64,000 nt of DNA. Origin: Vulcanimicrobiota bacterium (lineage in GTDB: Bacteria > Vulcanimicrobiota > Vulcanimicrobiia > Vulcanimicrobiales > Vulcanimicrobiaceae). The DNA lies in NCBI GenBank assembly GCA_963829005.1, contig CAWHGU010000004.1, positions 25,179 through 89,178 of the forward strand, written 5' to 3'. Below are positions 2,851 to 26,025 of this stretch, one piece after another. Position 1 is the stretch's first letter. The number at the start of each line of letters is the position of its first letter. Below the pieces are notes generated by a model. That model was not told where the DNA came from. It saw only the letters and a program-made list of their open reading frames with translations, and searched no databases. Position numbers and translations under genes: made by a program.

Positions 2851-2890
2851 GATGTAAGGGGTCGGGGGTTCGAGTCCCCCATCTCCACCA
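2851..2890 (+). repeat. tmRNA/tRNA-like 3' end, copy A (T-arm GGGGG-TTCGAGT-CCCCC, acceptor strand ATCTCC, A, CCA)
   Basis: GGTTCGAGTCCCCCATCTCCACCA at 2867-2890. It is preceded by a tetraloop hairpin (CCGAA-TCAT-TTCGG), not an anticodon arm. No matching 5' acceptor strand was found upstream. Confidence 0.7.
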
Positions 2891-2897
2891 TCGAAAA

Positions 2898-2935
2898 CGC
2901 CCGATTCCTTGAGGGATGTCGGCGCTTTTGTTTTT
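2898..2935 (+). terminator. intrinsic terminator directly after copy A
   Basis: Imperfect GC hairpin (CGCCCGATTCC / GGGATGTCGGCG) followed by CTTTTGTTTTT. Confidence 0.6.
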
Positions 2936-3030
2936 GCGGCAAGACCAAGCAGGACGCGCTTATGGAAGTTGGTCTTGCAGTAGCCGCGTTCCCAGCGGCC
3001 GAAGTTACGGATCAATCTGACTACTTGCAC

Positions 3031-3074
3031 GATATGTAAGTGGTCGAGGGGTTCGAGTTCCCCCATCTCCACTA
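3031..3074 (+). repeat. tmRNA/tRNA-like 3' end, copy B (degenerate)
   Basis: GATATGTAAGTGGTCGAGGGGTTCGAGTTCCCCCATCTCCACTA aligns with copy A with a few mismatches or indels. CCA is mutated to CTA. Confidence 0.55.
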
Positions 3075-3260
3075 TGGAAATCGTGCGGAAAGTCTGAATC
3101 CGAGAGACTTGGCGACGCCCACGGTCCGCATTGCGCCGATTGCACATGACTTCAAGGCCGCTGCATTAAAACTACATTGCGAGGTTCACTTCGGGCCGAG
3201 GGGGCCATCGCGTTGGTGACGAGTTCGCAGTCGTTTGCACCGAGTTCTTTTGCCATGAGG

Positions 3261-3490
3261 TCATTGAGCAATGCGTTCATCGATCAATGCTTGGTTCTTT
3301 TCGCGATCTAATGCAAGGTTTTGAACCTCCAGCGAGTCGTTTTGCAGGTCGAAGAGTTGCACGTCGTTGTTTTTGAAAATCTCCTCCATGGTTCGGGGCG
3401 TGTTATAGGCAGTTGGCGCGTGGTACCGACCAAACTTGTAGCGCCCGTCAAAACGCTGGCGCTGCTCGGCGGAGGGGACCGCGCCTAGCA
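3261..3490 (-). pseudogene. sulfatase-family C-terminal fragment
   Basis: The tail ...GRYKFGRYHAPTAYNTPRTMEEIFKNNDVQLFDLQNDSLEVQNLALDREKNQALI resembles the sulfatase C-terminal LYDL-x-DP-x-E-x-NLA region. There is no N-terminal catalytic part, and upstream it runs into the cyclase gene. Confidence 0.45.
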
Positions 3491-3504
3491 CGAAATGCGG
3501 GTTT

Positions 3505-6252
3505 ATGGCGACCCACGTGGAACCGGGAGCGCCGGCTGTGGCGCGCCCGACCGGCACGGTGACGTTCCTGTTTTCGGATATCGAAGGCAGCACCGTGCGC
3601 TGGGAGCGCGGCCGCGAGGCGATGGCCGCCGCGCTGGCACGCCACGACGCGCTCATGCGCGCGGCGATGGAAACCCGCGGCGCGTACGTCTTCAAGACGA
3701 TCGGCGACGCCTTTTGCGCGGCCTTCGCAACCGCGCCCGATGCCACTGCCGCGGCGCTCGACGCGCAGCGGGCGCTGGCACGCGAAGATTTCTCGGCAGT
3801 CGAGGGATTGCGCGTGCGCATGGCGCTGCACGCGGGTAGCACCGACGAGCGCGAAGGCGACTACTTCGGCCCGACGGTCAATCGCGTCGCGCGGTTATTG
3901 GCGGCCGGGCACGGCGGCCAAGTGCTCCTCTCAGGTGCGTGCGCGGAACTACTCCAAGCTGAGCTGCCGCCGGAGTGCAGCTTACGCGATCTCGGCGAGC
4001 ACCGGCTCAAGGACCTCGCGCAGCCCGAACGCATCCACCAGCTGCTTGCACCCGACCTGATCGCCGACTTCCCGCCACTGCGTTCGCTCGAACACCTCTC
4101 GAACAACTTACCAGCACAGCTCAGCTCGTTTATCGGTCGCGAGACCGAGATCGCTGAGATCACCGCGCTCGTCGAGCGGCATCGCCTCGTTACGCTTGTC
4201 GGCTCGGGCGGCGTCGGCAAGACGCGCCTCTCTTTACAAGTGGCAGCCGATCTCATTGACGACTTAAGCGACGGCGTGTGGTTTGTCGAGCTCGCACCGC
4301 TGAGTAAGGGCGAGTACATTCCCACGACCGTCGCGTCGGCACTCAGCATTACGCTCCCGTCCGAAGGCGATCCGGTCGAGAACCTCGCGCGCGCGCTCAA
4401 AGGAAAACAGCTGCTGCTGATCTTCGACAACTGCGAGCATCTCGTCGCGCCGGCGGTGCACGCCATCTCCGCCATCCTGCACGCTGCGCCGAAGGTCACG
4501 GTGCTGGCATCGAGCCGCCAAGCTCTGGGCGTCGCCGGGGAAGCGACGTACCAAGTACCCTCGCTCGATCTCCCCACCGGCATCACGCTCTTCGTCGAGC
4601 GCGCGCGGGCCGCGAGCGCAACGTTCTCGCTCACCGACGAGAATGCGCCGGTGATCGCGGAGATCTGCCGGCGGCTCGACGGCATTGCGCTCGCGATCGA
4701 GCTGGCGGCGGCGCGGGTAAAGATGCTCGGCGTCAAACAACTGCGCGACCGACTCGACGAACGCTTCCGCGTGCTCACGGGCGGCGGGCGCAACGTGCTG
4801 CCGCGGCAACAAACGCTGCGGGCGATGATTGATTGGAGCCACGACCTGCTCGACGAGCGCGAGCGGGTGCTCTTCCGGCGGCTGGGGATATTCGTCGACG
4901 GGTTCACGCTTGAGGGAGCCATCGCCGTCGGAAGCGGCGATGAGAGCCTTGACGAGCTCGATGTCTTTGACGTGCTGGCGTCGCTCGTTGACAAGTCGCT
5001 GGTGCTGGCCGAGCCGCAGGGTGACGCGGTCCGCTACCGGCTGCTGGAATCAACGCACGCCTATGCGTTGGAGAAGCTGGAGGCTGCGGGCGAGCGCGAT
5101 CGCGTTGTGGACCGCCATCTGCGCTATCTGCGCGACGGGTTCGCAGAGTTGCTGGAAGAACGCGAGCGGACCGCACGACATTCCGACTTCGATGCAAGGC
5201 TGAAGACGGAACTGGAGGACGTGCGCTCCGCCCTCGACGGCGCGTTGGCACGCTCGACGGTCGTCGACGGCGCCGACCTGCTCGCCAACATTGGCGGGGG
5301 TTGGCGATCCTTCGGGCTCGATGCCGAAGGCATGGCGCGCTGTGAGGCGTATCTCGCGGCGCTCCCGGCGGACGAGTCGCGGCTGCGCGCTCGGCTGTTG
5401 ATCGCGTTGGAGTACTTGCTTAGTAATTCCGGCCGGCTAGAGCAGGCCTTCCAGCTGGCGACCGAAGCGGTCGCGCAGGCGCGGGCAAGCGGCGATGCCC
5501 GGGTCCGCGCTGCGGCGCTGGTCCGGTATTCGTATATCGCGACGAAGCTTCATCGGCTCGACGACGCGGAGGAGGCGTTAGCGCAAGCCGAAGCGTTTCC
5601 AGGGGCCTCGGCGAAGTTTCGCATTGACTTGCTCCAATGCCGTGGAAACTTAAGTATGTTCCGTGGCGATCTCGAGACGGCGGCGCGCGTGCATGAGCAG
5701 CTCCGCAAGGCGGCCCACTCGCTCGCAAACGTCCGCAGCCAGCATTTGGCGGCGTGGAACCTCGCGGAGATCGAACACCAGCGCGGTCAGACGCAGCAAG
5801 CGATCGCGATCGCTCGCGAGGTCCTTCCCGCGCTGCGATCCGGCACCGATACAGGCATGCTCGCTAGCCTGCTCGCCAATCTCGCAGGCTATCTCGTCGC
5901 GGTTGACGATTTTCCGGGCGCGGTCGCGGCGGCCCGCGAATCGATCGGAATCCACGCGGCGCGCGAGCCGGACCATGCCTACGTCGCGATGGCGATCGAG
6001 CACCTGGCGCTCGCCGTCGCGCTGCACGGCGATTGTGCCCGAGCGGGCATGCTCGAAGGCTACGCCGACGATGCGTTTGCGCGACACGGATTCAAGCGCG
6101 AGTTCACCGAGACGACGACCTACGACCGCCTCACCGCACTCCTGCGCGAAACCCTCAAGCCCGACGAACTCGCACGACTGATGATGGAGGGCGCTGCACT
6201 TAATCCGGAGGCTGCGATCGCACTCGCGCTTGAGGATCACGAATCGCAATAG
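3505..6252 (+). CDS. class III adenylate/guanylate cyclase domain fused to NB-ARC-type STAND ATPase and TPR array (915 aa)
   Basis: Cyclase motifs FLFSDIEGST, VFKTIGDAF and GPTVNRVARL. Walker A GSGGVGKTRL and Walker B LLLIFDNCEH. C-terminal helical repeats. Confidence 0.85.
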   Translation: MATHVEPGAPAVARPTGTVTFLFSDIEGSTVRWERGREAMAAALARHDALMRAAMETRGAYVFKTIGDAFCAAFATAPDATAAALDAQRALAREDFSAVEGLRVRMALHAGSTDEREGDYFGPTVNRVARLLAAGHGGQVLLSGACAELLQAELPPECSLRDLGEHRLKDLAQPERIHQLLAPDLIADFPPLRSLEHLSNNLPAQLSSFIGRETEIAEITALVERHRLVTLVGSGGVGKTRLSLQVAADLIDDLSDGVWFVELAPLSKGEYIPTTVASALSITLPSEGDPVENLARALKGKQLLLIFDNCEHLVAPAVHAISAILHAAPKVTVLASSRQALGVAGEATYQVPSLDLPTGITLFVERARAASATFSLTDENAPVIAEICRRLDGIALAIELAAARVKMLGVKQLRDRLDERFRVLTGGGRNVLPRQQTLRAMIDWSHDLLDERERVLFRRLGIFVDGFTLEGAIAVGSGDESLDELDVFDVLASLVDKSLVLAEPQGDAVRYRLLESTHAYALEKLEAAGERDRVVDRHLRYLRDGFAELLEERERTARHSDFDARLKTELEDVRSALDGALARSTVVDGADLLANIGGGWRSFGLDAEGMARCEAYLAALPADESRLRARLLIALEYLLSNSGRLEQAFQLATEAVAQARASGDARVRAAALVRYSYIATKLHRLDDAEEALAQAEAFPGASAKFRIDLLQCRGNLSMFRGDLETAARVHEQLRKAAHSLANVRSQHLAAWNLAEIEHQRGQTQQAIAIAREVLPALRSGTDTGMLASLLANLAGYLVAVDDFPGAVAAARESIGIHAAREPDHAYVAMAIEHLALAVALHGDCARAGMLEGYADDAFARHGFKREFTETTTYDRLTALLRETLKPDELARLMMEGAALNPEAAIALALEDHESQ

Positions 6253-6500
6253 AGTAGCAGCGCCGGCGGCCTCACCCGCAGCGTTCGCGCTCGCCATGGC
6301 CCTGCGACCTCGTGCTGGAAGGCGGCGATCAATTTCGCGGATGGTTCCGCGTAAGGCTTTCCGAGGTCGAGACGATCGAACCGGGCCCGCTTTCTGCTCG
6401 AAGCGCGGTAAGCGCCGTTCGTGCGAGCTCGGGAAGATAGATGACGCGCCGCGACTTGCGCAGTCGAGCGAGGCGCTCCCAAATTAGCCGCCTGCACGAG

Positions 6501-7280
6501 CTAGACGGTTGGTATTGTGCCACCGTCGATAACATATTCGACGCCGGCGACCGTCGCGGCGCGATCCGACGCCAGGAATGCAATGAGCTCGGCGACCTCC
6601 TCCGGGGCATTGGGGCGCCCGATCGGGATGCCACCCAGCGCATTCATGAGTTCGTGACGCGCGGATTGGCGATCGGTTCCCGCGGCGACGGCAAGCCTAT
6701 CGATCATCCCCATCGCGGCAGTCGTTTCCGTAAAGCCGGGCGCAATACTGAGTACGCGAATGCCTTTTGGTCCTACTTCATTAGACAGCCCCTTGCTGTA
6801 CGTCGTGAGGGCGGCCTTCGCAGCCGCATACGCTAATGTTGATTCGAAGAGCGGCATGCGACGCTGAATCGACGACACGTGAATGACCACGCCGGATCGA
6901 CGCTCGAGCATCCCCGGTATCAGGGCGCGGTCGAGACGCACGGCGCCGAGCAGGTTGAGGTCCAGTGCGCGACCCCACTCGTCGTCCGAGAGGGCGGCAA
7001 AACCGCCGGCGGGCGCGTTGGAGCCTCCAACATTGTCTATGAGGATGTCCACGCCGCCGAAACCTTTAGTGACGCGCTCGACGATTTGGCGCACGCCCTC
7101 GGCACGAGTGACGTCGGCTTGAACGAAGAGCTCCGGCCGGCGATCTTGCGACGGAGCCTCGCGCGCGGTCGTAGCGACCCGTGCCCCGCCGGCAGCCAGA
7201 CGGCGCGCGATCGCTTCACCGACGCCCTTCGTCCCGCCGGTGACGAGGGCGCGCTTGCCCTCGAATTCGCCGCCCGACAT
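6501..7280 (-). CDS. SDR-family oxidoreductase
   Basis: TGGTKGVGEAIARRL (TGxxxGxG), NNVG-like DNVGG, and S...YAAAK catalytic motifs. 259 aa. Confidence 0.9.
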   Translation of the reverse strand: MSGGEFEGKRALVTGGTKGVGEAIARRLAAGGARVATTAREAPSQDRRPELFVQADVTRAEGVRQIVERVTKGFGGVDILIDNVGGSNAPAGGFAALSDDEWGRALDLNLLGAVRLDRALIPGMLERRSGVVIHVSSIQRRMPLFESTLAYAAAKAALTTYSKGLSNEVGPKGIRVLSIAPGFTETTAAMGMIDRLAVAAGTDRQSARHELMNALGGIPIGRPNAPEEVAELIAFLASDRAATVAGVEYVIDGGTIPTV

Positions 7281-7609
7281 CAGCCGATCACCAAGCGGGC
7301 GATCTTCCCGTTCGAAATGACGAATGCATGATCGATCGGCAGCGGCGATCCCGGAAACGTGCCCGAGACGAGGGTTCCCACGATGAGTGTGTCGCCGGCC
7401 TGCTCGACCGCTCTGACGTCGAACGTAGCGTGATACTTCCGTTGGGTCTCCTCGATCCAGATTCTGATCGAATCGCCGCCGCGATATTCCTGGCCCTCGT
7501 CTTTGACGGCAGCGTCATCTTCGAACTGCGCGAGCGCACTCGGGACGTCGAACGCATTCCGGGATTCGAAATATTTGCGTATGGGTGGGGATAGTTCCAC
7601 AGCAGTCAT
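7280..7609 (-). CDS. SnoaL-like / NTF2-fold protein
   Basis: 109 aa with a small alpha+beta pattern (FESRNAFDVPSALAQFEDDAAVKDEG...). ATGA overlap with the downstream SDR gene. Confidence 0.55.
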   Translation of the reverse strand: MTAVELSPPIRKYFESRNAFDVPSALAQFEDDAAVKDEGQEYRGGDSIRIWIEETQRKYHATFDVRAVEQAGDTLIVGTLVSGTFPGSPLPIDHAFVISNGKIARLVIG

Positions 7610-7613
7610 TTCC

Positions 7614-8438
7614 TCATGCCTCCGAGGAAGTGCGAAATATTGGCCAGCCGATTTCGGTTACTAGCTGGCTCTCGTCACCGACGTCGTCGCTGGTGATGAG
7701 GTAACTCTCGCGGATCGGTCCAGACACCGCGATTGCCCGTTCGACCACGTGAGTTCCGAGCGGTGCGTAGGTGCGATCCGCTTCGCGTAAAGCGCCTTGA
7801 TGGACGGCGACGGCAAGCTCAACCGGCGGCAGTTCCCGCACGAACACTTCGCCAACCGCGTCCAGCCTGCCGACTACGGGGACGAACAGAGTTACTTCGC
7901 CGACTTCATCCGTGTACAGTTCCGTCGGGTATAGCCCACCCGATGGCCCAGCCGGTGAAACGCCCTGGTCGCGCAGCACGCGGTAGATCTCCGCGAACGA
8001 GTTGGACCACCAAGGCTCAATGTCGGGAAGGCGTACGATCTTCGTGACGGCTCCGACATGAAAGGCGGGAACCGACCGATACTCGATCGCTATCGGCGCG
8101 GGCGAGCCCTCAAGGAGTGAACGCAGCGATGCTACGACCGATTGCGTCCGCTCGAGCGTGGATTCCATTTGTTTAAGGTGCTCGACGATCAAGGCGTTCC
8201 GCCGATCGACGTCAGGTGCTTTGAGAATCGCTTTGATATGCTCCACCGGCATATCGAGGTCGCGGAATCGGCGAATCACCTGCGCGGCCGGCACCTGGCT
8301 CAAATCATACGAGCGATATCCGGTGCTCGGGTCAACATCGGAAGGTTCTAGCAGACCGAGCTCGTGGTAGTGCCGCAGCGCTTTCACGCTGAGGTGCGTC
8401 ATCCGCGAAAAGTCACCAATGGACAACTTGGCTGGCAT
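7614..8438 (-). CDS. MerR-family regulator with C-terminal GyrI-like effector-binding domain
   Basis: N-terminal LSIGDFSRMTHLSVKALRHYHELGLL HTH plus a ~150-aa GyrI-like tail (BmrR-type architecture). Confidence 0.85.
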   Translation of the reverse strand: MPAKLSIGDFSRMTHLSVKALRHYHELGLLEPSDVDPSTGYRSYDLSQVPAAQVIRRFRDLDMPVEHIKAILKAPDVDRRNALIVEHLKQMESTLERTQSVVASLRSLLEGSPAPIAIEYRSVPAFHVGAVTKIVRLPDIEPWWSNSFAEIYRVLRDQGVSPAGPSGGLYPTELYTDEVGEVTLFVPVVGRLDAVGEVFVRELPPVELAVAVHQGALREADRTYAPLGTHVVERAIAVSGPIRESYLITSDDVGDESQLVTEIGWPIFRTSSEA

Positions 8439-8444
8439 GATTAC

Positions 8445-8475
8445 ATTGTGAAACCTCCCTCAAGGGGAGAGTCAA
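8445..8475 (-). promoter_or_regulatory. MerR-type promoter: TTGACT, 19-nt spacer with CTCCC/GGGAG dyad, CACAAT; implies a leaderless transcript
   Basis: Minus-strand read is TTGACT-CTCCCCTTGAGGGAGGTTT-CACAAT. The -10 ends 6 nt before the ATG at 8438. Confidence 0.5.
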
Positions 8476-8670
8476 GCGATTTGGCGGATCGCAAGCGAGC
8501 CCTTGGCAGCGTACGACAACCTTACGACAATTCGCGCGGAAACTAGCGGAAAGCGCGGACGCTAGCGGACGAAAAATCGGCCTCGAAAAGACTGACGCAG
8601 CAACGAAAATGGGCTATTTCTTGCGTTTCGTACGCGCTCTAGGTTTCGAGAGGCGTTTACTTCGCATGCA

Positions 8671-8706
8671 AGGGAGTCGGGGTTCGAGTCCCCCTTTCTC
8701 CCACTA
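8671..8706 (+). repeat. tmRNA/tRNA-like 3' end, copy C (diverged)
   Basis: CGGGGTTCGAGTCCCCCTTTCTCCCACTA followed by TCGAAAACGCCTGATTC, the same downstream motif as copies A and E. Confidence 0.55.
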
Positions 8707-8939
8707 TCGAAAACGCCTGATTCTGCATGCTGTTTGTTTTCGCCGTTTTTCGACGGCATTGTTCTCATTGACGACGATCCTACGACAACCGAGGGCGGGC
8801 GGTGCTGTTGGCCGTACCTGCGGTGTCTATGGGCGGCACCTGGTCGGGCCCGGATGTCATTTCCGGTTCGGTTCTGTTCGCCGGTCTCGTTGGCTTATTT
8901 CTAAATGCCTTGACCGGACCATTTCCGAAACGGCGATAA

Positions 8940-9047
8940 ATGCCTGGTTTCCAGCAACCGCGTCTTCTCGCGCTGATCGTCGTCGTAATAGTCGCATTGC
9001 TGATAGGCGTAGCTTGGCTCTTCTACGTGTCGGTCGGCGCGGACTGA
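8940..9047 (+). CDS. possible 35-aa single-TM peptide
   Basis: MPGFQQPRLLALIVVVIVALLIGVAWLFYVSVGAD. Short, with no homology support. Confidence 0.2.
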   Translation: MPGFQQPRLLALIVVVIVALLIGVAWLFYVSVGAD

Positions 9048-9081
9048 GTGCCTCGCCGACACCGTAAGGTCATGACGGCCG

Positions 9082-9411: not shown

Positions 9412-9414
9412 GCT

Positions 9415-9687
9415 TTACCGGCGGCCGCTTTCCGAGAACGCGCGCGGCCGAGCCTCGTTCACGATGAGTGCGCGCCCGTCAATCATACGTCCCGAAAGCT
9501 CCGCAATCGCCGCATCGGCCGCATACGGAGCGTCGAATTCCACAAAGCCGAAGCCTTTAGGGCGCTGGGAGACTCGATCAACTACGACGCGGGCGGAGAT
9601 CACTCGCCCGGACGCCCCAAAAAGGGCTCTGAGGTCGTCCTCGGTCATCGAGTACGGGAGATTTCCGACGAAAAGGGTTTTTGACAT
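9415..9687 (-). CDS. RRM-type RNA-binding protein (90 aa)
   Basis: RNP-2 LFVGNL and RNP-1 KGFGFVEF motifs. Confidence 0.9.
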   Translation of the reverse strand: MSKTLFVGNLPYSMTEDDLRALFGASGRVISARVVVDRVSQRPKGFGFVEFDAPYAADAAIAELSGRMIDGRALIVNEARPRAFSESGRR

Positions 9688-9813
9688 GACGCTGCTTTCA
9701 AAAAGAAGGTTGTGCTTGCTACTGATAATACCATATCACTAGCATTCGTCAAGTCGCGATCCCTATCGGGCGCCCACGGGCTTAGCGGCCGGTGGAGAAA
9801 GGCGACCGCTAGG

Positions 9814-10194
9814 CTAGGCCGCGCATGTGGCACATAGACCATACAGCGTTACAGAATGTTGCTTAACCCGAAACCTCGGCGGTGCCAGCTTACGAAGATT
9901 ATCCGGGCACCCCTCGACGTCAAACGCTCGATCGCACTTCTCGCACTGGAAATGATGGTGATGTCCTTTGTTCGCCCGCTCGTAGCGAGCGGGTTCCCCG
10001 GGTATTTCGACCGTTTCGATCCAACCTTCGGTCAACAACGCCGCGACCGCACGGTAGACCGTCGCCACGCCTAAACCCTTGACTCGCCTCGACGCCGCCT
10101 TGAGCAACTCGTCGACGCTTAAAGGGCGCTCCGCGTCGGCCAAGACCGCACGCACGGCGTCCCGCTGCTTCGTCTTCCGACTCACAGGAACCAC
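9814..10194 (-). CDS. Fur-family metalloregulator
   Basis: KQRDAVRAVL...VATVYRAVAALLTEGWI winged helix, HHHHFQCEKC and CATC metal-site motifs. Confidence 0.85.
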   Translation of the reverse strand: MVPVSRKTKQRDAVRAVLADAERPLSVDELLKAASRRVKGLGVATVYRAVAALLTEGWIETVEIPGEPARYERANKGHHHHFQCEKCDRAFDVEGCPDNLRKLAPPRFRVKQHSVTLYGLCATCAA

Positions 10195-12873: not shown

Positions 12874-12898
12874 GGTTCGAGTCCCCCCATCTCCACCA
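12874..12898 (+). repeat. tmRNA/tRNA-like 3' end, copy D (identity starts inside the T-loop)
   Basis: GGTTCGAGTCCCCCCATCTCCACCA. The 5' half of the T-stem is absent. Confidence 0.65.
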
Positions 12899-12903
12899 AA
12901 AAA

Positions 12904-12942
12904 CGGGCCGATTCCTTAAGGGATTTCGGCGTTTTTGTTTTT
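12904..12942 (+). terminator. intrinsic terminator attached to copy D, between convergent genes
   Basis: CGGGCCGATTCC-TTAA-GGGATTTCGGCG hairpin followed by TTTTTGTTTTT. Confidence 0.6.
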
Positions 12943-12963
12943 GCGGCAAGACGGCCGAGCGAT

Positions 12964-16914: not shown

Positions 16915-17895
16915 ATGGATGCTCCCTACGATAACGAGCTAACCCTACCGTCCATTTACGATATAACGGCTGCTGAAGCCCGAATTCAGCGCTACGTTCA
17001 TCGAACTCCGGTTCTTGAGAGTAGCACGTTGACCTCGTTGTGCAATGCAAGGCTCTTTTTCAAGTGCGAGAACCTCCAAAGAGGAGGCTCGTTCAAAGCG
17101 CGCGGCGCGCATAACGCGGTGTTTGCGCTTTCCGATCAAGAAGCTCAGCGAGGTGTAGTGACCCACTCGTCAGGAAACCATGGAGCGGCCGTTGCGATGG
17201 CGGCAAAGAGCCGCGGAATCCCGGCGCATATCGTGGTGCCGGAAAACTCGGTTCGGGCAAAGATCGATAGTATTCGAAGACTTGGCGCGAACATTGTCAC
17301 TTGTAAGGCTACTTTGAGGGATCGGGAAGCAGCCGCGTCAGAGGTAGCATCCAAAACTGGTGCTTTTTTCATTCACAGCTATCACAACCTGTTTGTCATT
17401 GCCGGCCAAGGGACCGCTGTAACTGAGCTACTCGACGATCAACCAGATTTGGACGTGATCGTCGCTCCCGTTGGAGGGGGCGGCTTATTGGCTGGAACCG
17501 CAGTCGCGGCGAAAGCACTCAGACCGAGCATCATGGTCGTCGGGGCCGAGCCCGCGATGGCCGATGATGCGCTTCGCTCTTTTCGTGAAGGTCGTCTGAT
17601 CCCCCAGGCCAACCCACAAACAGTCGCGGATGGCCTACGAACCTCTCTTAGTCCCCTCACGTTCGCGCTGATCGCGGCATATGTGGACGACATCGTTTCA
17701 GTATCTGAGGCTGAAATCGTGAGAGCTATGCGAATCATCTGGTCGGTCCTCAAGGTCGTGGTCGAGCCGTCCGCTGCGGTATCCCTCGCCGCCATCCTTG
17801 CCAATACTTCTGACCCACTTTTTGTCTCGAAGCGAGTCGGCATTATCTTGTCAGGGGGCAACGTAGATCTGGATCGACTGCCCTGGTTAACTTGA
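16915..17895 (+). CDS. PLP-dependent serine racemase / threonine(hydroxyaspartate) dehydratase family enzyme
   Basis: FKCENLQRGGSFKARGA (PLP lysine), VTHSSGNHGAAVA, and GGGGLLAG glycine loop. Confidence 0.85.
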   Translation: MDAPYDNELTLPSIYDITAAEARIQRYVHRTPVLESSTLTSLCNARLFFKCENLQRGGSFKARGAHNAVFALSDQEAQRGVVTHSSGNHGAAVAMAAKSRGIPAHIVVPENSVRAKIDSIRRLGANIVTCKATLRDREAAASEVASKTGAFFIHSYHNLFVIAGQGTAVTELLDDQPDLDVIVAPVGGGGLLAGTAVAAKALRPSIMVVGAEPAMADDALRSFREGRLIPQANPQTVADGLRTSLSPLTFALIAAYVDDIVSVSEAEIVRAMRIIWSVLKVVVEPSAAVSLAAILANTSDPLFVSKRVGIILSGGNVDLDRLPWLT

Positions 17896-19796: not shown

Positions 19797-19840
19797 CGCT
19801 GCTTTACAGCGCCTCCCGTCGACCTAGGGAATACAATGGC

Positions 19841-20533: not shown

Positions 20534-20586
20534 CCTGAGAACGCCGCTCGTGCGATTGATTAAGTGCCCCACTCTGCTGTAGCTAG

Positions 20587-21822
20587 CTAGTACGCGAACT
20601 CCTGAAGTTGGTTTACGCCCGGACCGTTCACCCAGCCGGTGCGCGCGCTGGGATTGATCGCGATCTTGATTGGAATCACGAGGTCGCCGGCATCGGTAAA
20701 GTTGAAGCCGTTGATCGATTCGACGAAATGTCCGGTCTCATCGTAAACCTGAATGCTGCTGCCGGAGCTCGAGGAGCCCGAATGGGGCTGAGCGATGAGA
20801 AAGAGCTGATGAATGGGGTCGTTCGCGACGTAGGTGCCTGAGTAGAACTGCGCGACGCCGCTCGGCGGGACGGGAAGCTGCGCGGCCCAGAAACCCGTTT
20901 TTTGTGGGACGTTGTAAATCTCGACGCCGGCGTCCAGCTCGGTCGTCGTGCATGCGATGCCGGTCTTTGAATCGTAGCCGACGCCGTTGGGGAAGCCGCA
21001 TCCTACCCCGCCGTCCGGGCAATTCACACCTGAAAGCTCGGTCATTTTGCCCGACTTCAGATCGAACGTAAAGATGTCGGGCGGCGGACCACCCACCCTG
21101 CCGAAGCTCGGCGACGTCGCCATCACGGCACGATTGTTGACCGTATCCTGCGCCAGTTGCGGTTGCGCCCCGAGCGCGAAATCGTTCTGGTTGAGCTGGA
21201 TGACCTTACCGAACGTATTCTTTCCAACGTCTGATACGATCAGAGCAGTCGCATCGGAACCGACGCGCGGGTAGCCGAAAACCACGCTGGTCGTCGTGCT
21301 TTGGTTTTCGGGAGTTTGCAGGACGTTGAAGAGTTTTACCGGCGGCGTCCAGCGACCGGTGAACTTGTTAGCGGTCACGGGGCTCATGATGCTGTAATGG
21401 TCTTTTGTCGGCGTTTGTCCGGGGATGCCGGCTTTTTGGAAATCGACGAGCCCGACGTCGCGTGCGAAGATGCCGTCGACGACGTAATCGTTGCCCTTCT
21501 GAACGCCGGTACCCTTATGCACGCCGAGCGTCTTGGTGATCTTGCCGCTCGTCGCATCAAACGTTTGCACCGAGACTTCGTTGGCGGTTGCCGACGCCAA
21601 GAGGCCGTCGTTGCCATTTTGATCGACGTCGAATCCGAAGATCTGACCGCCGTCGGAGGTGGAGAGAACCGGCCCGAGCGATCCGCCGTTGTGGGCAATG
21701 GACGAGTGGCTCACGGACACCGTCTCGCTCGGCGGTAGGGTACCCGGTCCGGCACCGGAGCTGCACGCCGACGCCACGGCAAGCGCGACCGGCCCGATGA
21801 TTAACTGATATCGGCGTTTCAT
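20587..21822 (-). CDS. hypothetical lipoprotein (411 aa)
   Basis: Lipobox LAVASAC, beta-rich sequence, no recognised family. Confidence 0.6.
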   Translation of the reverse strand: MKRRYQLIIGPVALAVASACSSGAGPGTLPPSETVSVSHSSIAHNGGSLGPVLSTSDGGQIFGFDVDQNGNDGLLASATANEVSVQTFDATSGKITKTLGVHKGTGVQKGNDYVVDGIFARDVGLVDFQKAGIPGQTPTKDHYSIMSPVTANKFTGRWTPPVKLFNVLQTPENQSTTTSVVFGYPRVGSDATALIVSDVGKNTFGKVIQLNQNDFALGAQPQLAQDTVNNRAVMATSPSFGRVGGPPPDIFTFDLKSGKMTELSGVNCPDGGVGCGFPNGVGYDSKTGIACTTTELDAGVEIYNVPQKTGFWAAQLPVPPSGVAQFYSGTYVANDPIHQLFLIAQPHSGSSSSGSSIQVYDETGHFVESINGFNFTDAGDLVIPIKIAINPSARTGWVNGPGVNQLQEFAY

Positions 21823-21983
21823 GGTGGCGTATGCTATCGGTTAATTGTGAAAAAATCCTGAAGCGATTTCGTCCTCCGAATCCCACAACGGCGCATATGA
21901 GCGGTTTATACTTCTTTCATTTGCAACTCGTATGCTGAGGTGAATCAATCACCAATCGTTTAACAGGAGACTTACAGGGCGAC

Positions 21984-22463
21984 ATGTTCAGAGAATCTTT
22001 AGGAATCTCGGTATTGGTCGGCGCAATAACGCTGGCCTCGTGCGGCGAAGGCGGTGCCGGCGGCGGTGCCACGGGCGGCGGCGGCTTCTATGGCGGCCCG
22101 CCTCCAACGTCCCCGCCGCAACAGCACTCAAACGTTCCCGTTCGTCAGACCGTCGCAGGCAAACCGGCCTTCGTCGATCCATCTAAGAATCACACGCTCT
22201 ACTTCTTAGACGTTGACACGCGGACCGGCGGCACGTGCACCGGTGGCTGTCTTTCGGTATGGTTTCCTCTCGTCCCGAGCCAAGGATCGCGCACGCAAGG
22301 CAACTTTACGATCGTAAATCGATCCGACGGCACAAGCGCGCAGTGGGATTACAGAGACCATCCGCTCTACACATACTCCGGCGATAACGGGCCCGATCAA
22401 GCTAACGGAAACGGCATTCCATTCGCCGGTGGCCACTGGCACATCGCGCGCCCGACGCGCTAA
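21984..22463 (+). CDS. lipoprotein with COG4315-type secreted repeat
   Basis: Lipobox ITLASC, Gly-rich linker, HTLYFLDVD...GGTCTGGCLSVWFPL and HPLYTYSGD repeat signatures. Confidence 0.65.
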   Translation: MFRESLGISVLVGAITLASCGEGGAGGGATGGGGFYGGPPPTSPPQQHSNVPVRQTVAGKPAFVDPSKNHTLYFLDVDTRTGGTCTGGCLSVWFPLVPSQGSRTQGNFTIVNRSDGTSAQWDYRDHPLYTYSGDNGPDQANGNGIPFAGGHWHIARPTR

Positions 22464-22553
22464 AGAACCCACATCATTGTGGAAGCGGCGCGGCCTCTTC
22501 CGCAATCGTTCCGAGTTTTGTCACAATATAGATGCCCCGTTAACGCAAGCAGA

Positions 22554-23858
22554 TCAGCGCAGCGATCTGAAAGCTGCGCGGAGCTCCTCTGAGAAGAGTT
22601 GTGGCTGCTCCCAAGCTGCAAAGTGTCCGCCTTTGGGAATCTCGTCAATGCTGTAATAGATAATCTTGTGGTACACGGTCGCCGTCCAACTTCTCGGGGC
22701 TTGATAGATCTCGCCGGGAAAGACGCTGACGGCAGCCGGGACGTTGACGCTGGTTGCGTTGCTCTTGATGTACCAATAGAAGCGGCACGATGAGATCCCC
22801 GTATTCGTCAAATAGTAGAGCGTGAAGTTATCGAGCAAATCGTCTCGTGTGAAGCCGTCCGCGGGATGTCCATCGATCGTGCGTCCGAGGATGGCTGAGA
22901 GCTGCACGGGCGAGGGCTGGCCCCAGCCGTCGCCGTGGTCCAGCAGCCACGCGGCCAGACCAATGGGTTCCGTCAATCCGTACAGCGTTTGCGGGCGCGT
23001 GCGATTCTCGGATCCGTATGCAAAGTGCAGTGTATCGAACCGCAACAGCTGCTCGTACGCCCGTTTTTCATCGACCGAAAAATTCGCCAACGGCGGATCG
23101 CCGCAGCGCAGCGCCTTCCCAACGGCGGGTGGAATGACGTAAGGGAAGTTGCTATGAATGCCCAGCAGCTCTGGCGGCGCCTGTTGCCCCAGCAGGTTCG
23201 TGACAACCGCCCCCACGTCGCCGCCTTGGGCCACAAACTTGGTGTAGCCAAGTCGTTTCATCAGCACCGTCCACGCGCGTGCGGTTTGGTCCGGGCCCCA
23301 CGCCGTGGCCGGCCTGCTCGAGAACCCGTAGCCGGGTATCGCCGGAATTACGACGTGGAAGGCGTCGGATGCGCTCGCGCCATACGCCGTGGGATTGGTG
23401 AGCGGATCGATAATCTTCAGTTGCTCGATGGGCGAGCCGGGCCATCCGTGGGTGACGATGATCGGCAACGCGTTTTCATGCTTCGAACGAACATGAATAA
23501 AATAGATGTCGAGCCCATCGATCTCAGTCAGGAATTGCGGGAGGGCGTTCAGCTTCGCCTCGCACTTGCGCCAATCGTAGCCCGCGCTCCAATAGCTCGC
23601 AAGCGCCTGCATTGTCGCGAGCGGCACGCCTTGCGCGGTGTCCGCGACCGTTTCTCGCTCAGGCCATCTCGTCGCGTTGATGCGCCGGCGCATGTCGCTA
23701 AGGTCTGCTTCCGGAACATTAGCGCGAAACGGACGAATGGAGGTGCTCATACCTTCGGCCCTTTCTGCGAGACTGCTAAGTCCTAGGGGAACGGCGGCAG
23801 CGGCTAGCGCTGCTGTCCCGCAAAAGCGGCGGCGATTGAGGCCTGGTGCGCTTGACAT
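22554..23858 (-). CDS. epoxide hydrolase (EH N-terminal domain + alpha/beta hydrolase), Tat signal
   Basis: NRRRFCG twin-arginine motif, IRPFRANVPEADLSDMRRRI...RWP, THGWPGS. Paralogue of 51734-53035. Confidence 0.85.
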   Translation of the reverse strand: MSSAPGLNRRRFCGTAALAAAAVPLGLSSLAERAEGMSTSIRPFRANVPEADLSDMRRRINATRWPERETVADTAQGVPLATMQALASYWSAGYDWRKCEAKLNALPQFLTEIDGLDIYFIHVRSKHENALPIIVTHGWPGSPIEQLKIIDPLTNPTAYGASASDAFHVVIPAIPGYGFSSRPATAWGPDQTARAWTVLMKRLGYTKFVAQGGDVGAVVTNLLGQQAPPELLGIHSNFPYVIPPAVGKALRCGDPPLANFSVDEKRAYEQLLRFDTLHFAYGSENRTRPQTLYGLTEPIGLAAWLLDHGDGWGQPSPVQLSAILGRTIDGHPADGFTRDDLLDNFTLYYLTNTGISSCRFYWYIKSNATSVNVPAAVSVFPGEIYQAPRSWTATVYHKIIYYSIDEIPKGGHFAAWEQPQLFSEELRAAFRSLR

Positions 23859-23972
23859 GCAGATTCTCCTATGCCGCTTCCTTTGGCATTCTAGGTTCCG
23901 TTGCCGCGTACCGACCGGAACGCGGCGCGCAGTTCCTGTCTGAACTGCTCACTGCGCGATGAGGCCGACAGA

Positions 23973-25766
23973 TTAGGTTTCCTTTTTGCTTTCCTCGTGC
24001 AACGCGTTCACGATTGCACGTGGAAGGCCCTGAAGCTCTTGCAGCATCAGCGCTTGCGCCTCTCGTATCGACTCTATGACGCCATCGCTTTGGCTCGACA
24101 GGGTGTCTAGCGCCGTCCCAACCCCATGCGCGAGAGCCAGCAACGCCTCCGATTCATCCGGGGCATACACCTCGCCGTCGCGCTTGGGCCCACAGACGAG
24201 CACGCCGACAAGGTCGCCGCGTGAGATCATGGGGAACGCAAACTCGCCGCGCAACTGTGAATCAGGAAACACCTGCAGGTCGATCGGCTTGTTCCACGCG
24301 CGAAGCGCGACAATGCCCGGATCGTTTTCGCTGACGTGCGCCCGCTGGCCATCGGTGGCGAACGCGTAAACGGCCGTGCCGTCGCGAACAAGGATTGCGG
24401 CGCCCTGCGCGCTCGTGTGCTCCTCAACCGTCTGCACGGTCCGATCCAGCAGCGTGGATCGGTCGGAGATATAGGACGCCTCGTGGGCGAAGCGGCGTAA
24501 CGCCGACTCATCCTCGTGCCGCTTGCGGAAAAAGACGCGATCGACGAATCGCTCGACATACCTATGGATATATCGTAGCGCGATGCCGAGACCGAGCGCC
24601 ACGACCATTCCGACGACGGCGCTGGTAGTGTGGGTAGTGCTGGCGAGCCAGGCACTGGCACCCCATTCGGCCAGAACGAATCCACCGATCACGATCGCCG
24701 AAACGATCGTGAAGACGGCGGCGCGGTTCAAGAAGAAGCCGACGTCGATCAACCGACGACTTAGCGCCGCATATGTCAGCGCAACCGGTGCGATGAGAAA
24801 CACTAGATTGCTAACAAGGCGAAGGACAATGGAGACGGCGTAAGATGACGATGAGGTTGCGATCAAAGCAACCATGAAAAAGCCAAAAAAGGCCGCAAGA
24901 GGTACGAGCGTCCACACCGCTCGCTGACGCTCGACGCCGCGGGATGCGGCGATTGCCAGGAGGCCGCAGAGCACAGCCATGAGGACAGCGGCCGTAACCG
25001 AAACTAACCCCGCAATCCCCTCAACGAGAGGGACCGGATCGAACCGCAGCGTGATAACTCCGGCAATCCCAACTAAAGAGATCACAGCGAAGATCACGAG
25101 GAATATGTAACATAGCCATTGTGTGATACGACGAGGCCGCGATAGCGGCTGGGCGAAGCCGCTTGCGAACGCCGCCAACAACGCCACCGACAACGGCGCA
25201 ACTACGCTCAACGAGATGTTCATGAGAACATCCAGCCAGGCCCAGGGGACCGCGAAACCGATTAAGGCGCCCGTCAAAACAAAGGCCGTGAGCCACAACG
25301 ATAGCAGTCGCATCTGGGGCACATCGGCGCGCCGCCATGCAATCAGAGCTGCAAACAGCAGAAGCCAGAGAGCCGCGAACGAGCCGGGCCAGAAAACCCA
25401 CGTAAGTTTTGGCGCCTGCGGTACGACGGTAAGCTTTTCTTGCAGCGAACCCCTCTGCACCAAAAGGGTAAGAGGGCGTCCGTTGAGCGGCGCTTGGAAA
25501 AGCGAATAACGCTCGGTAAGGGTGTTCGCGCGGATGTCAATGAGATCGCCTCGGCGAAGACCGGCGCGGGCAGCTGGCCCGCCCGGGTTGACCGATGTAA
25601 CCGCGAGATTATAGGGGCTCGAAGAGGCGCCGGCATTGGCTCCCCACCACCCCTGCCACGGTGCAGCGCCGCCCATCCCGGTGATGTCAAGGACACCCCC
25701 GATCTGGACAAGCGCCGCAAGAGCGCAAATCGCTAGGAGCACCGGGCGCCATGCAACCCGCCTCAT
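23973..25766 (-). CDS. PDZ / multi-TM / GAF membrane protein with no recognisable output domain
   Basis: N-terminal PDZ-like VTSVNPGGPAARAGLRRGDLI, about 9 TM helices, C-terminal GAF-like region (AAILVRDG...FAFPMISRGDLVGVLVCGP). Confidence 0.75.
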   Translation of the reverse strand: MRRVAWRPVLLAICALAALVQIGGVLDITGMGGAAPWQGWWGANAGASSSPYNLAVTSVNPGGPAARAGLRRGDLIDIRANTLTERYSLFQAPLNGRPLTLLVQRGSLQEKLTVVPQAPKLTWVFWPGSFAALWLLLFAALIAWRRADVPQMRLLSLWLTAFVLTGALIGFAVPWAWLDVLMNISLSVVAPLSVALLAAFASGFAQPLSRPRRITQWLCYIFLVIFAVISLVGIAGVITLRFDPVPLVEGIAGLVSVTAAVLMAVLCGLLAIAASRGVERQRAVWTLVPLAAFFGFFMVALIATSSSSYAVSIVLRLVSNLVFLIAPVALTYAALSRRLIDVGFFLNRAAVFTIVSAIVIGGFVLAEWGASAWLASTTHTTSAVVGMVVALGLGIALRYIHRYVERFVDRVFFRKRHEDESALRRFAHEASYISDRSTLLDRTVQTVEEHTSAQGAAILVRDGTAVYAFATDGQRAHVSENDPGIVALRAWNKPIDLQVFPDSQLRGEFAFPMISRGDLVGVLVCGPKRDGEVYAPDESEALLALAHGVGTALDTLSSQSDGVIESIREAQALMLQELQGLPRAIVNALHEESKKET

Positions 25767-25858
25767 GGTCGGATCTTAACCGATTTCCGGCCTTGAAGAA
25801 ACGCCTGGCGCTTTGGGTGGCCGCGGTCACCGACGATCTTCGCGATCAAGCGAATCGT

Positions 25859-25891
25859 GGGGTCGGGGGTTCGAGTCCCCCATCTCCACCA
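25859..25891 (+). repeat. tmRNA/tRNA-like 3' end, copy E
   Basis: GGGGTCGGGGGTTCGAGTCCCCCATCTCCACCA is identical to copy A across the T-arm and acceptor. Confidence 0.7.
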
Positions 25892-25899
25892 TTGAAAAA

Positions 25900-25938
25900 C
25901 GTCCGATTCCTTGAGGGATTTCGGCGATTTTGGTTTTT
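25900..25938 (+). terminator. intrinsic terminator attached to copy E
   Basis: CGTCCGATTCC-TTGA-GGGATTTCGGCG hairpin followed by ATTTTGGTTTTT. Confidence 0.55.
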
Positions 25939-26003
25939 CGCGCAAGACGAGCAGAGCGCGCGCTTACGGAAGTTGGCCTTGCATAGCCGCGTTCCAGCGG
26001 CCG

Positions 26004-26025
26004 ATCTCCACCATGAAAACGCGCC
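26004..26025 (+). repeat. tmRNA/tRNA-like 3' end, copy F (acceptor-CCA core plus downstream motif only)
   Basis: ATCTCCACCATGAAAACGCGCC compared with copy A ATCTCCACCATCGAAAACGCCC. Confidence 0.5.

What the first reader, a model, noticed from the sequence alone, without database searches (positions are those of the whole stretch)
2851..26025. Six same-strand tmRNA/tRNA-like 3' ends partition 23 kb into integrase-less island-like blocks
GGTTCGAGTCCCCCATCTCCACCA (T-loop, T-stem, acceptor 3' strand, discriminator A, CCA) occurs at 2867-2890 and 25868-25891, and with one extra C at 12874-12898. Degenerate versions lie at 3050-3074 and 8681-8706, and the last 10 nt plus the downstream motif lie at 26004-26025. 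All copies are on the + strand.

The acceptor strand CATCTCC would pair with GGGGATG, including a G3:U70 wobble, as in tmRNA and tRNA-Ala. No 5' half or anticodon arm precedes any copy; copy A is preceded by a tetraloop hairpin. By eye, weaker similarity (for example GGAAAC-n-CTGG motifs) extends 100-200 nt upstream of copies A, C, D and E.

Established knowledge: the 3' ends of ssrA and tRNA genes are preferred att sites of tyrosine-integrase islands. Each integration duplicates that end, and tandem accretion gives arrays of this kind.

Unusual here:
- No integrase, excisionase or transposase is present in any block (3.1-8.5, 8.8-12.8 and 13.0-25.8 kb).
- The intact RNA gene is not in the window.
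- Three copies carry their own intrinsic terminator.

Two readings are possible. These may be decayed, cis-mobilisable (CIME-like) islands, or a family of small RNAs ending in a tRNA-like domain.
Basis: partly seen in the sequence, partly recalled or inferred. Interest (0 to 1): 0.7.

Follow-up and report, generated by a model that had tools for sequence, protein, structure and literature searches.

The report
Decayed island array at tRNA-Ala(CGC)
The six repeats are left-over 3' pieces of a tRNA-Ala(CGC) gene, not tmRNA, marking where integrase-driven genomic islands stacked up and then lost their integrases in an uncultured soil bacterium (Candidatus Cybelea); this process is well known, so the finding is ordinary.

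Summary
Five same-strand copies are individually significant (nhmmer E 2e-15 to 6e-6). The sixth (F) is only a 10-nt remnant, recognisable by its context.

They are not tmRNA ends. They match the 3' 25-50 nt of tRNA-Ala(CGC) as found intact in 13 related Eremiobacterota genomes. In copies A, B and C the identity runs back into the anticodon loop.

In relatives (L033, L082, L089) a tyrosine integrase sits directly beside the intact tRNA. The far end of the island is a conserved 170-nt arm plus a displaced tRNA fragment. That arm precedes window copy C. It starts with tandem TACGACAAT repeats, which recur about 75-95 nt after the CCA, as expected for arm-type integrase sites.

A 70-nt integrase gene remnant (98.6% identical to L033's) lies at 6388-6457. 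No other recombinase is detectable.

The "own terminators" are weakened copies of the tRNA-Ala terminator. The small-RNA reading gets no covariation support.

The array extends beyond the window: a seventh fragment lies about 6 kb upstream. The intact tRNA was not found within about 15 kb upstream of copy A.

Verdict: a decayed, partly ancestral tandem array of tRNA-targeting islands. It is a new member of a known kind and of low to moderate interest.

The parts
2615..2846 (+). 'A-arm': conserved sequence upstream of copy A, inferred to be the P arm of an attP. It carries tandem TGACGACC repeats at 2702-2709 and 2713-2720.
   Evidence: Homologous at 74-83% to L038, L011 and L095, each directly upstream of a tRNA-Ala fragment. 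The tandem repeat is invariant in 6 sequences. It sits at the same offset (about -144 nt) as the repeats of the C-arm.
2847..2890 (+). Copy A: tRNA-Ala(CGC) positions 32-76, with a 1-nt deletion in the C run.
   Evidence: blastn-short 95.6% over 45 nt; nhmmer E=2.4e-15; alignment to intact genes.
2891..2939 (+). Weakened copy of the native tRNA-Ala terminator hairpin plus T run.
   Evidence: Homologous to the terminator after the intact tRNA in L050. Folds at -15.6 kcal/mol, z -1.2, against -20.3 kcal/mol, z -4.5 in L050.
3022..3074 (+). Copy B: an old degenerate tRNA-Ala fragment (positions about 25-74, CCA mutated to CTA). It is part of an ancestral module of terminator, spacer and scar.
   Evidence: nhmmer E=3.4e-10. 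The same module, including a B-like scar, is present in L029, L061 and L095.
3505..6252 (+). Cargo gene: a protein with adenylate/guanylate cyclase, STAND NTPase and TPR domains.
   Evidence: Pfam. Homologues lie next to the C-arm in L061 and L064, and within about 2 kb of a tRNA fragment in L076, where no C-arm match was recorded.
6388..6457 (-). 70-nt remnant of a tyrosine integrase gene, corresponding to about aa 249-271 of the L082 integrase.
   Evidence: blastn: 98.6% to L033, 95.7% to L089 and 88.4% to L082 integrase genes. tblastn: 62% over 37 aa, E=1e-4. The Pfam identity of the L082 and L033 proteins is Phage_integrase plus SAM_3.
8512..8656 (+). 'C-arm': the conserved P arm of the int82-type island family. 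It carries tandem TACGACAA(C/T) repeats at 8512-8520 and 8523-8531.
   Evidence: 72-88% identical (84-88% for ten of them) to 11 GTDB species-representative genomes, plus the strain-level contig L002 in the alignment. The left edge lies at the tandem repeat in most, with weak similarity reaching about 25 nt further in some. It co-occurs with the integrase in L089, in L033+L088, and in L082+L093.
8657..8704 (+). Copy C: tRNA-Ala(CGC) positions about 31-76. It is degenerate in the acceptor part, but 97.8% intact in the related strain L002.
8705..8792 (+). Relic of a P' arm: a terminator-like hairpin at 8742-8757, a degenerate repeat at 8770-8778 and TACGACAAC at 8781-8789. Together with the C-arm it makes copy C an attP-like junction.
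   Evidence: 88.9% identical to L093 418-531 and 71% to the stretch after the intact tRNA in L033. The same tandem repeats lie 75-95 nt after the CCA in L033, L082 and L089. Hairpin.
12874..12898 (+). Copy D: tRNA-Ala(CGC) positions 52-76, 100% identical.
   Evidence: A strain-level 392-nt indel abuts its left border.
12899..12946 (+). Weakened copy of the native tRNA-Ala terminator.
   Evidence: -14.6 kcal/mol, z -1.7.
25859..25891 (+). Copy E: tRNA-Ala(CGC) positions 43-76, with the same 1-nt deletion as copy A.
25892..26003 (+). Terminator relic plus spacer of a second copy of the native module.
   Evidence: Alignment to A-B, L050, L029, L061 and L095. It is 84.5% identical to A-B, whereas A-B is about 90% identical to the modules of other species. 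Folds at -12.3 kcal/mol, z -0.4.
26004..26013 (+). Copy F: the last 10 nt of a B-like scar. The rest was removed by an internal deletion of about 60 nt.
   Evidence: Not significant on its own.

Best explanation
The window holds part of a long, decayed array of genomic islands. They integrated one after another into a tRNA-Ala(CGC) gene of a Candidatus Cybelea (Eremiobacterota) genome.

Mechanism:
- A lambda-type tyrosine integrase is intact in relatives L082 and L089.
- It recombines an island attP with the 3' half of the tRNA gene.
- The attP has three parts: a P arm of about 170 nt beginning with two tandem TACGACAAT sites; a core identical to tRNA positions about 27-32 to 76; and a P' arm of about 100 nt with a terminator and two more tandem sites, directly followed by int.
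- The island supplies a new 3' half and a terminator. The old 3' half, with whatever lay downstream, is displaced to the far end.
- Repeated integration gives same-strand fragments separating blocks. Where two islands of the same family abut, the junction looks like an attP (copy C).
- Later deletions removed the integrase genes, leaving a 70-nt stub at 6388-6457. They also truncated some fragments on their left side (D, E, F) and let the fragments and terminators drift.
- The A-B and E-F segments are two diverged copies of the native module 'tRNA 3' end, terminator, spacer, ancient scar'. At least one was probably imported with an island from another species.

Shown: the tRNA identity of the repeats, the canonical island layout in relatives, the integrase remnant, conservation of the arms and their repeats, and the weak terminators.

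Inferred: that the tandem repeats are integrase arm-type sites, the order of events, and the deletions.
For: 1. In a scan of 185,579 species genomes the motif falls inside ARAGORN-called tRNA-Ala genes in 86 of 88 assessable hits outside Eremiobacterota. Inside Eremiobacterota it falls in 13 intact tRNA-Ala(CGC) genes and 16 fragments.
2. The copies align to the intact gene from the anticodon loop (A, B, C), the variable loop (E) or the T-loop (D) onward.
3. L033 and L082 have a Phage_integrase plus SAM_3 protein directly after the intact tRNA on the opposite strand, and L089 has a close homologue by tblastn (87% identity). The C-arm plus a fragment closes the L089 island 5.4 kb away.
4. Window 6388-6457 is 98.6% identical to the L033 integrase gene.
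5. The C-arm is conserved in 12 sequences besides the window (11 GTDB genomes plus strain contig L002), with its left edge at or near the tandem TACGACAAT repeats. The same repeats occur 75-95 nt after the CCA in L033, L082, L089 and the window.
6. The A-arm has the same design with TGACGACC repeats.
7. A relative (L129) has three same-strand fragments. It shares the block SBP_bac_5, HTH-STAND, DUF3466 plus a fragment with the region left of the window.
8. A seventh fragment lies at L001 3305-3352, about 6.1 kb left of the window.
Against: - The intact tRNA-Ala(CGC) of this genome was not found. It is absent from the window and from about 12.4 kb to its left.
- No integrase is intact.
- The strain-level contigs available (contig_20361; contig_166365 and contig_166366 from a second sample; Logan contigs) are collinear across the fragments. 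No empty-site polymorphism was seen apart from a 392-nt indel at copy D.
- Simple serial integration does not by itself explain three copies of the native terminator or two copies of the whole native module.
- D, E and F do not start at the same tRNA position as A, B and C.
Confidence: 0.85

Rival explanations
1. The blocks are still-mobile cis-mobilisable elements (CIMEs). They have no integrase of their own but keep functional att sites. They would be excised, shuffled or transferred by an int82-type integrase encoded elsewhere in the genome or on an incoming island.
For: - The arm-type repeats on both sides of copy C are nearly intact.
- The related strain L002 keeps an almost perfect core at copy C.
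- Integrase-less segments flanked by an intact tRNA and a C-arm plus fragment occur in relatives, for example the 3-kb segment in L029.
- Block order differs between the window genome and L129.
- L002 has an inverted fragment pair.
- A published precedent exists for integrase-less islands in tandem arrays (PMC3146451, read).
Against: - Window copy C has a degenerate core, and A and E carry a deletion in the T-stem/acceptor.
- D, E and F lack arms.
- No circular junctions or empty sites were seen in the strain-level contigs.
- No trans-acting integrase was found in 64 kb.
Confidence: 0.15
2. The repeats are genes for small RNAs. Each would be a 200-300 nt transcript ending in a tRNA-like T-arm, acceptor and CCA, with its own terminator.
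For: - The arms upstream of A and C are conserved across species at 72-88%.
- A hairpin plus T run follows A, D and E.
- There is a weak promoter-like match at 8503-8531.
Against: - RNAalifold on 11 C-arm homologues gives a covariation term of +0.56. Only 4 of 39 pairs show any double change, and the sole solid helix is the T-arm.
- Nothing reaches any family's gathering score; the only significant hits are partial tmRNA matches at 23 bits against a gathering score of 47.
- The terminators are weaker than at intact genes.
- The fragments carry deletions and substitutions.
- Conservation in the arms is concentrated in short direct repeats typical of protein-binding sites.
- The neighbouring non-coding spacer is equally conserved, at 80-90%.
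- Arms D and E have no homologues.
Confidence: 0.04
3. The repeats are ssrA (tmRNA) 3' ends, either from islands that targeted ssrA or from a permuted two-piece tmRNA.
For: - Partial Rfam tmRNA hits with E about 1e-5 at A and E.
- A viral contig (L006) has a permuted tmRNA ending in the same 25-mer.
Against: - The hits cover only the T-arm and acceptor and lie below the gathering score.
- ARAGORN finds no tmRNA.
- Identity with tRNA-Ala(CGC) continues through the variable loop and the anticodon loop, including the CGC anticodon.
- All 13 intact genes carrying this end in Eremiobacterota are tRNA-Ala(CGC).
Confidence: 0.01

Closest known systems
tDNA-targeting genomic islands with tyrosine integrases (Islander concept: the regenerated tRNA and a displaced fragment mark the island ends; PMC4383910 abstract, seen)
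   Same: - Displaced 3' fragments of a tRNA gene, all on the same strand.
- In relatives the integrase lies next to the regenerated tRNA.
- The island supplies the 3' half and a terminator.
- The identity blocks start in the anticodon loop or the T-loop, the classic sublocations (the sublocation classes are recalled from my own knowledge of Williams 2002).
   Different: In this window every island has lost its integrase, and the regenerated tRNA is not within reach. Some fragments are truncated or degenerate.
Dehalococcoides ssrA genomic-island arrays (PMC3146451)
   Same: - Multiple tandem islands bounded by direct repeats of the 3' end of a small RNA gene.
- Many islands lack an integration module and were proposed to be cis-mobilisable or fixed.
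- The region is a hot spot of strain variability (read).
   Different: There the target is ssrA, the repeat is 20 bp and the recombinase is a CcrB-like serine recombinase. Here the target is tRNA-Ala(CGC), the repeats are 25-50 nt, and the integrase is a tyrosine recombinase with lambda-like arms.
CIME / tandem accretion of ICESt1-type elements in Streptococcus thermophilus (recalled from my own knowledge: Pavlovic et al. 2004; cited as a concept in PMC3146451)
   Same: Integrase-less segments flanked by att sites sit in tandem with other elements. The junctions between elements look like attP.
   Different: Mobilisation in trans is demonstrated there. Here it is untested, and several sites look decayed.
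Bacteriophage lambda attP architecture (arm-type sites flanking a core; established knowledge)
   Same: Tandem short direct repeats lie at the outer edges of a 170-nt P arm and a 100-nt P' arm. The integrase gene adjoins P'.
   Different: Binding of the repeats by the integrase is inferred only from their position, conservation and co-occurrence. No excisionase or host-factor sites were identified.

Membership tests
tRNA-gene (tDNA) integrative genomic island array | The repeat is identical to the 3' part of a tRNA gene of the host lineage. | tested here: met
   The copies match tRNA-Ala(CGC) of 13 Eremiobacterota genomes over 25-50 nt.
tRNA-gene (tDNA) integrative genomic island array | The fragments lie downstream of, and in the same orientation as, an intact regenerated tRNA gene. 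| tested here: inconclusive
   All copies share one strand. The intact gene is absent from the window and from about 12.4 kb to its left. The feature is met in relatives: L029, L089, L033+L088 and L097+L013.
tRNA-gene (tDNA) integrative genomic island array | A tyrosine integrase gene lies adjacent to the regenerated tRNA or att site. | tested here: not met
   The window has no intact integrase, only a 70-nt remnant at 6388-6457. The feature is met in relatives L033, L082 and L089.
tRNA-gene (tDNA) integrative genomic island array | The islands are variably present, with empty sites in relatives. | tested here: inconclusive
   L050 shows the tRNA with its native terminator and no integrase or arm. 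Block content and order differ between the window genome and L129. Strain-level contigs are collinear except for a 392-nt indel at D.
Cis-mobilisable element (CIME) | Flanked by att sites but lacking recombination and transfer genes. | tested here: met
   The blocks at 3.1-8.7, 8.8-12.9 and 12.9-25.9 kb are bounded by fragments and have no recombinase.
Cis-mobilisable element (CIME) | Excised or mobilised in trans by a related element's integrase. | not testable with these tools
   This needs read-level junction detection or experiments. The degenerate cores at A, C and E argue against current activity.
tmRNA (ssrA) 3' end | A covariance-model match at or above the Rfam gathering score, or an ARAGORN call, with sequence identity specific to ssrA. 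| tested here: not met
   The hits score 23.5 and 22.9 bits against a gathering score of 47 and cover only the T-arm and acceptor. ARAGORN finds nothing. Upstream identity is to the tRNA-Ala anticodon arm.
Structured small RNA with a tRNA-like 3' domain | A conserved secondary structure supported by compensatory changes. | tested here: not met
   RNAalifold on 11 homologous arms gives a covariation term of +0.56.
Structured small RNA with a tRNA-like 3' domain | A discrete transcript with its own promoter and an efficient terminator. | tested here: inconclusive
   Only weak consensus promoter matches were found. The hairpins are weaker than at intact tRNA loci. Expression is not testable here.

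The most novel reading that the evidence does not exclude
The tRNA-Ala(CGC) locus of Candidatus Cybelea and related Eremiobacterota may be a long-lived, phylum-specific 'plasticity zone'. In it, integrase-less cargo blocks, each keeping only a minimal arm-core-arm att module, would be repeatedly excised, reshuffled and exchanged between species in trans by a single integrase family. The array may even persist without an adjacent intact tRNA gene.
Probability: 0.15. Interest if true: 0.45.

Novelty: new member of a known kind. Interest (0 to 1): 0.25.

Why it matters
The result documents a tRNA-Ala(CGC) integration hot spot, and gives the likely attP anatomy of its integrase family, in Eremiobacterota (WPS-2). 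This phylum is known only from metagenomes and its mobile elements are essentially undescribed.

Practical uses:
- The fragment coordinates give exact island borders for annotating accessory cargo such as the STAND NTPase, a TonB-dependent receptor and regulators.
- The conserved arm motif can serve as a probe for such islands in soil metagenomes.

It does not change what is known about how such arrays arise.

Tried and rejected
1. tmRNA origin. It was tested with Rfam at gathering and E-value thresholds and with ARAGORN. It was rejected once the intact tRNA-Ala(CGC) genes were found.

2. Permuted tmRNA. I searched for the 5' partner GGGGATG. Five matches were found, as expected by chance, and none lay near the copies.

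3. Similarity among the upstream flanks of the six copies. Scores were at shuffle level.

4. Hidden integrase or transposase.
- Pfam, PHROGs and NCBIfam on the large ORFs.
- Pfam on 146 further ORFs.
- tblastn with the relatives' integrase.
- Only the 70-nt remnant was found.

5. Locating this genome's intact tRNA.
- The sequence was extended 9.4 kb to the left (L001) and a further 3 kb (L124). No tRNA was found.
- A further walk failed: P0121 is not on record, and proteins from loci are not accepted for look-up.

6. Strain-level empty sites. The look-up of 26212-28020 found nothing. The look-up of 16915-17895 returned only collinear contigs.

7. Prophage origin of the island family. The C-arm repeat is absent from IMG/VR.

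8. Structured-RNA reading of the C-arm. There was no covariation.

9. The simple terminator scan did not flag the hairpins after A, D and E. Folding showed that they are weak relics.

10. The ORF giving the Cap15_CD_rec hit could not be pinned down.


Full report
**Observation**

The 24-mer GGTTCGAGTCCCCCATCTCCACCA occurs exactly at 2867-2890 and 25868-25891, with none expected by chance. All are on the + strand.

A profile built from intact relatives' genes scores five copies significantly: A 2.4e-15, C 6.4e-11, B 3.4e-10, E 4.2e-10 and D 5.6e-06. F, at 10 nt, is not significant alone.

ARAGORN finds no tRNA or tmRNA in the window. Rfam at gathering thresholds finds nothing. At permissive thresholds only partial tmRNA matches appear at A and E. 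They cover the T-arm and acceptor and score 23 bits against a gathering score of 47.

**What the repeat is**

I scanned one genome per species (GTDB) for the motif, allowing the extra base.
- Outside Eremiobacterota, 86 of 88 assessable hits lie inside ARAGORN-called tRNA-Ala genes, 84 of them with anticodon CGC.
- Inside Eremiobacterota, 13 hits are intact tRNA-Ala(CGC) genes and 16 are fragments.

The intact gene in the relatives is GGGGATGTAGCTCAGCTGGTAGAGCACTTGCTTCGCATGTAAGGGGTCGGGGGTTCGAGTCCCCCCATCTCCACCA. The window copies align to it as follows:

| Copy | tRNA positions | Notes |
|---|---|---|
| A | 32-76 | one C missing |
| B | about 25-74 | degenerate |
| C | about 31-76 | degenerate here, 97.8% intact in strain contig L002 |
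| D | 52-76 | 100% identical |
| E | 43-76 | same missing C as A |
| F | 67-76 | |

The source gene is therefore tRNA-Ala(CGC), not ssrA. The tmRNA-like score only reflects the shared tRNA-Ala-like acceptor and T-arm.

Names attached to homologous proteins place the organism in Candidatus Cybelea, Eremiobacterota. The window is 98% identical to ENA ERZ25039506 contig_20361 and 100% identical to Logan contigs of ERR10755940.

**Canonical islands in relatives**

In L033 and L082 the ORF directly after the intact tRNA, on the opposite strand, is a tyrosine integrase with Phage_integrase and SAM_3 domains. L089 has a close homologue.

In L089 the island is only 5.4 kb. It reads tRNA, integrase, one large ORF, then a conserved stretch of about 170 nt followed by a tRNA 3' fragment.

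That stretch, the 'C-arm', precedes window copy C (8512-8656). It is 72-88% identical (84-88% for ten of them) to eleven species-level genomes, and the strain contig L002 also aligns. In most its left edge lies at two tandem TACGACAAT repeats, and in some weak similarity reaches about 25 nt further left; beyond that every genome differs.

The same tandem repeat lies 75-95 nt after the CCA, just before the integrase stop, in L033, L082 and L089. A slightly degenerate version lies at window 8770-8789.

Tandem short repeats at the outer edges of both arms, with the integrase gene adjoining one arm, match the layout of a lambda-type attP. That the repeats are arm-type binding sites is my inference.

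Copy C is thus an attP-like junction: the end of one island abuts the start of the next. This is what tandem integration of same-family islands produces.

The stretch upstream of copy A (2615-2846) is a second arm family. It is conserved in L038, L011, L095 and L090. It has invariant tandem TGACGACC repeats at the same offset.

**Traces of the integrase in the window**

No intact recombinase exists in 1-28 kb. I checked the large ORFs with Pfam, PHROGs and NCBIfam and 146 further ORFs of at least 75 aa with Pfam.

However, window 6388-6457 lies between the STAND-cyclase gene and the SDR gene. It is 98.6% identical to the L033 integrase gene, 95.7% to L089 and 88.4% to L082, in the expected minus orientation. 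This is a deletion stub of the island's integrase.

**The terminators and the A-B / E-F segments**

The intact tRNA in L050 has no integrase beside it. It is followed by a strong hairpin plus T run (-20.3 kcal/mol, z -4.5) and a spacer.

Copies A, D and E carry homologous but weaker hairpins, at -15.6, -14.6 and -12.3 kcal/mol with z -1.2 to -0.4.

A-B and E-F are two copies of a module made of tRNA 3' end, terminator, spacer and an old degenerate fragment. The module also occurs in L029, L061 and L095. F is the B-like scar after a deletion of about 60 nt.

A-B is about 90% identical to the modules of other species but only 84.5% to E-F. The two are therefore not a recent internal duplication. 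At least one probably arrived with imported DNA, or the duplication is old. Simple serial integration does not fully explain this, and I leave it open.

**Extent and age of the array**

Left of the window, contig_20361 carries a seventh fragment (L001 3305-3352, tRNA positions 27-74, 100% identical). No intact tRNA lies within about 12.4 kb of the window start.

In another species (L129, from the genome of L061) three same-strand fragments span 13 kb. The block SBP_bac_5, HTH-STAND, DUF3466 plus a fragment is syntenic with the region left of the window, while the neighbouring blocks differ. So part of the array is ancestral and part is lineage-specific.

At strain level the contigs are collinear, with two exceptions:
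- A 392-nt segment, a truncated HigA-like gene, is present in contig_20361 exactly at the left border of copy D.
- Strain L002 has an inverted fragment pair.

**Rivals**

The small-RNA reading fails its only testable criterion. RNAalifold on 11 homologous arms gives a covariation term of +0.56, and the only solid helix is the T-arm. Conservation in the arms is concentrated in direct repeats. The adjacent spacer is equally conserved.

The CIME reading, that the elements are still mobilisable in trans, is structurally possible and has precedent (PMC3146451). However, the cores of A, C and E are damaged and no excision polymorphism was seen. I give it 0.15.

The tmRNA reading is refuted.

**Comparison with known systems and verdict**

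This is the standard behaviour of tDNA-targeting islands (PMC4383910). The tandem, partly integrase-less arrangement parallels the Dehalococcoides ssrA island arrays (PMC3146451) and the CIME/accretion concept.

What is new is only the host phylum, the target gene tRNA-Ala(CGC) and the arm motifs. The finding is a new member of a known kind, with interest about 0.25.

Noticed in passing
L125 4863-5254 (inserted between window 12873 and 12874): One strain (contig_20361) has an extra 392 nt exactly at the left border of copy D. It encodes a truncated HigA-like HTH_3 protein whose first residues (MGGLEP) are the reverse complement of the tRNA T-arm. This suggests a junction formed at a CTCGAACC microhomology or at a secondary att site.
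   Followed up: partly
L002 2143-2192 (-) and 3299-3346 (+): A related strain (93% identical) carries an inverted pair of perfect tRNA-Ala 3' fragments with inverted flanks about 1.1 kb apart. This is consistent with an inversion or duplication mediated by the fragments.
   Followed up: no
L001 3305-3352 (about 6.1 kb left of the window start): A seventh same-strand tRNA-Ala(CGC) fragment (positions 27-74, 100% identical), so the array is longer than the finding's coordinates.
   Followed up: yes
L129 5610-5657, 11876-11920, 18582-18620: Another Cybelea-like species has three same-strand fragments. It shares the block SBP_bac_5 / HTH-STAND / DUF3466 with the region left of the window, but the other blocks differ in content and order.
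   Followed up: partly
window 3505-6252; L001 1-1276: STAND NTPases fused to HTH or cyclase domains are cargo of these islands. The family is hugely expanded in Candidatus Cybelea (7,781 proteins with E <= 1e-30 among the 8,000 candidates scored). A possible defence or signalling role was not examined.
   Followed up: no
L006 195-574 (-): An AT-rich IMG/VR viral contig encodes a permuted (two-piece) tmRNA with tag ANDETAYLMAA. Its acceptor piece ends in the same 25-mer as tRNA-Ala(CGC). It is unrelated to the window apart from that motif.
   Followed up: partly
window 1-28100 (ORF not identified): One of 146 small ORFs gives a Pfam Cap15_CD_rec hit (cyclic-dinucleotide receptor domain, E=2e-7). 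This hints at a CBASS-like defence gene among the cargo. A follow-up scan of ten candidate ORFs did not locate it.
   Followed up: partly
window 9418-9735 (-), 9814-10194 (-): An RRM-type RNA-binding protein gene and a Fur-family regulator lie in the block between copies C and D, upstream of a CarboxypepD_reg/TonB-dependent receptor gene.
   Followed up: no
window 53178-53977; 61210-62017; 62581-63650: Periodic direct repeats in the right part of the window: periods of about 126 nt at 53.2-54.0 kb, 126-135 nt at 61.2-62.0 kb, and recurring 41-mers (GG..LYGTT-type when translated). These are probably repeat-domain proteins.
   Followed up: no
window 23143-23604 vs 52308-52772; 44761-45096 vs 56255-56590: Paralogous segments at 70-77% identity. 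One involves the epoxide-hydrolase gene inside the 13-26 kb block, with a second copy outside the array.
   Followed up: no
L124 7463-7507 (contig end): The contig ends in what looks like the reverse complement of another tRNA-like T-arm and acceptor (GGAGTTCGAGTCCGCATCGGAACCGCCA on the window's + strand), about 250 nt beyond the SBP_bac_5 gene. It is not tRNA-Ala(CGC), and its nature is unresolved.
   Followed up: no
Eremiobacterota loci L023, L061, L090, L102; window copies A and E; L002 copy C: A variant of the fragment with five instead of six C's recurs in several genomes, including Illumina assemblies, but never in an intact tRNA. It is therefore fragment-specific rather than a sequencing artefact.
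   Followed up: partly
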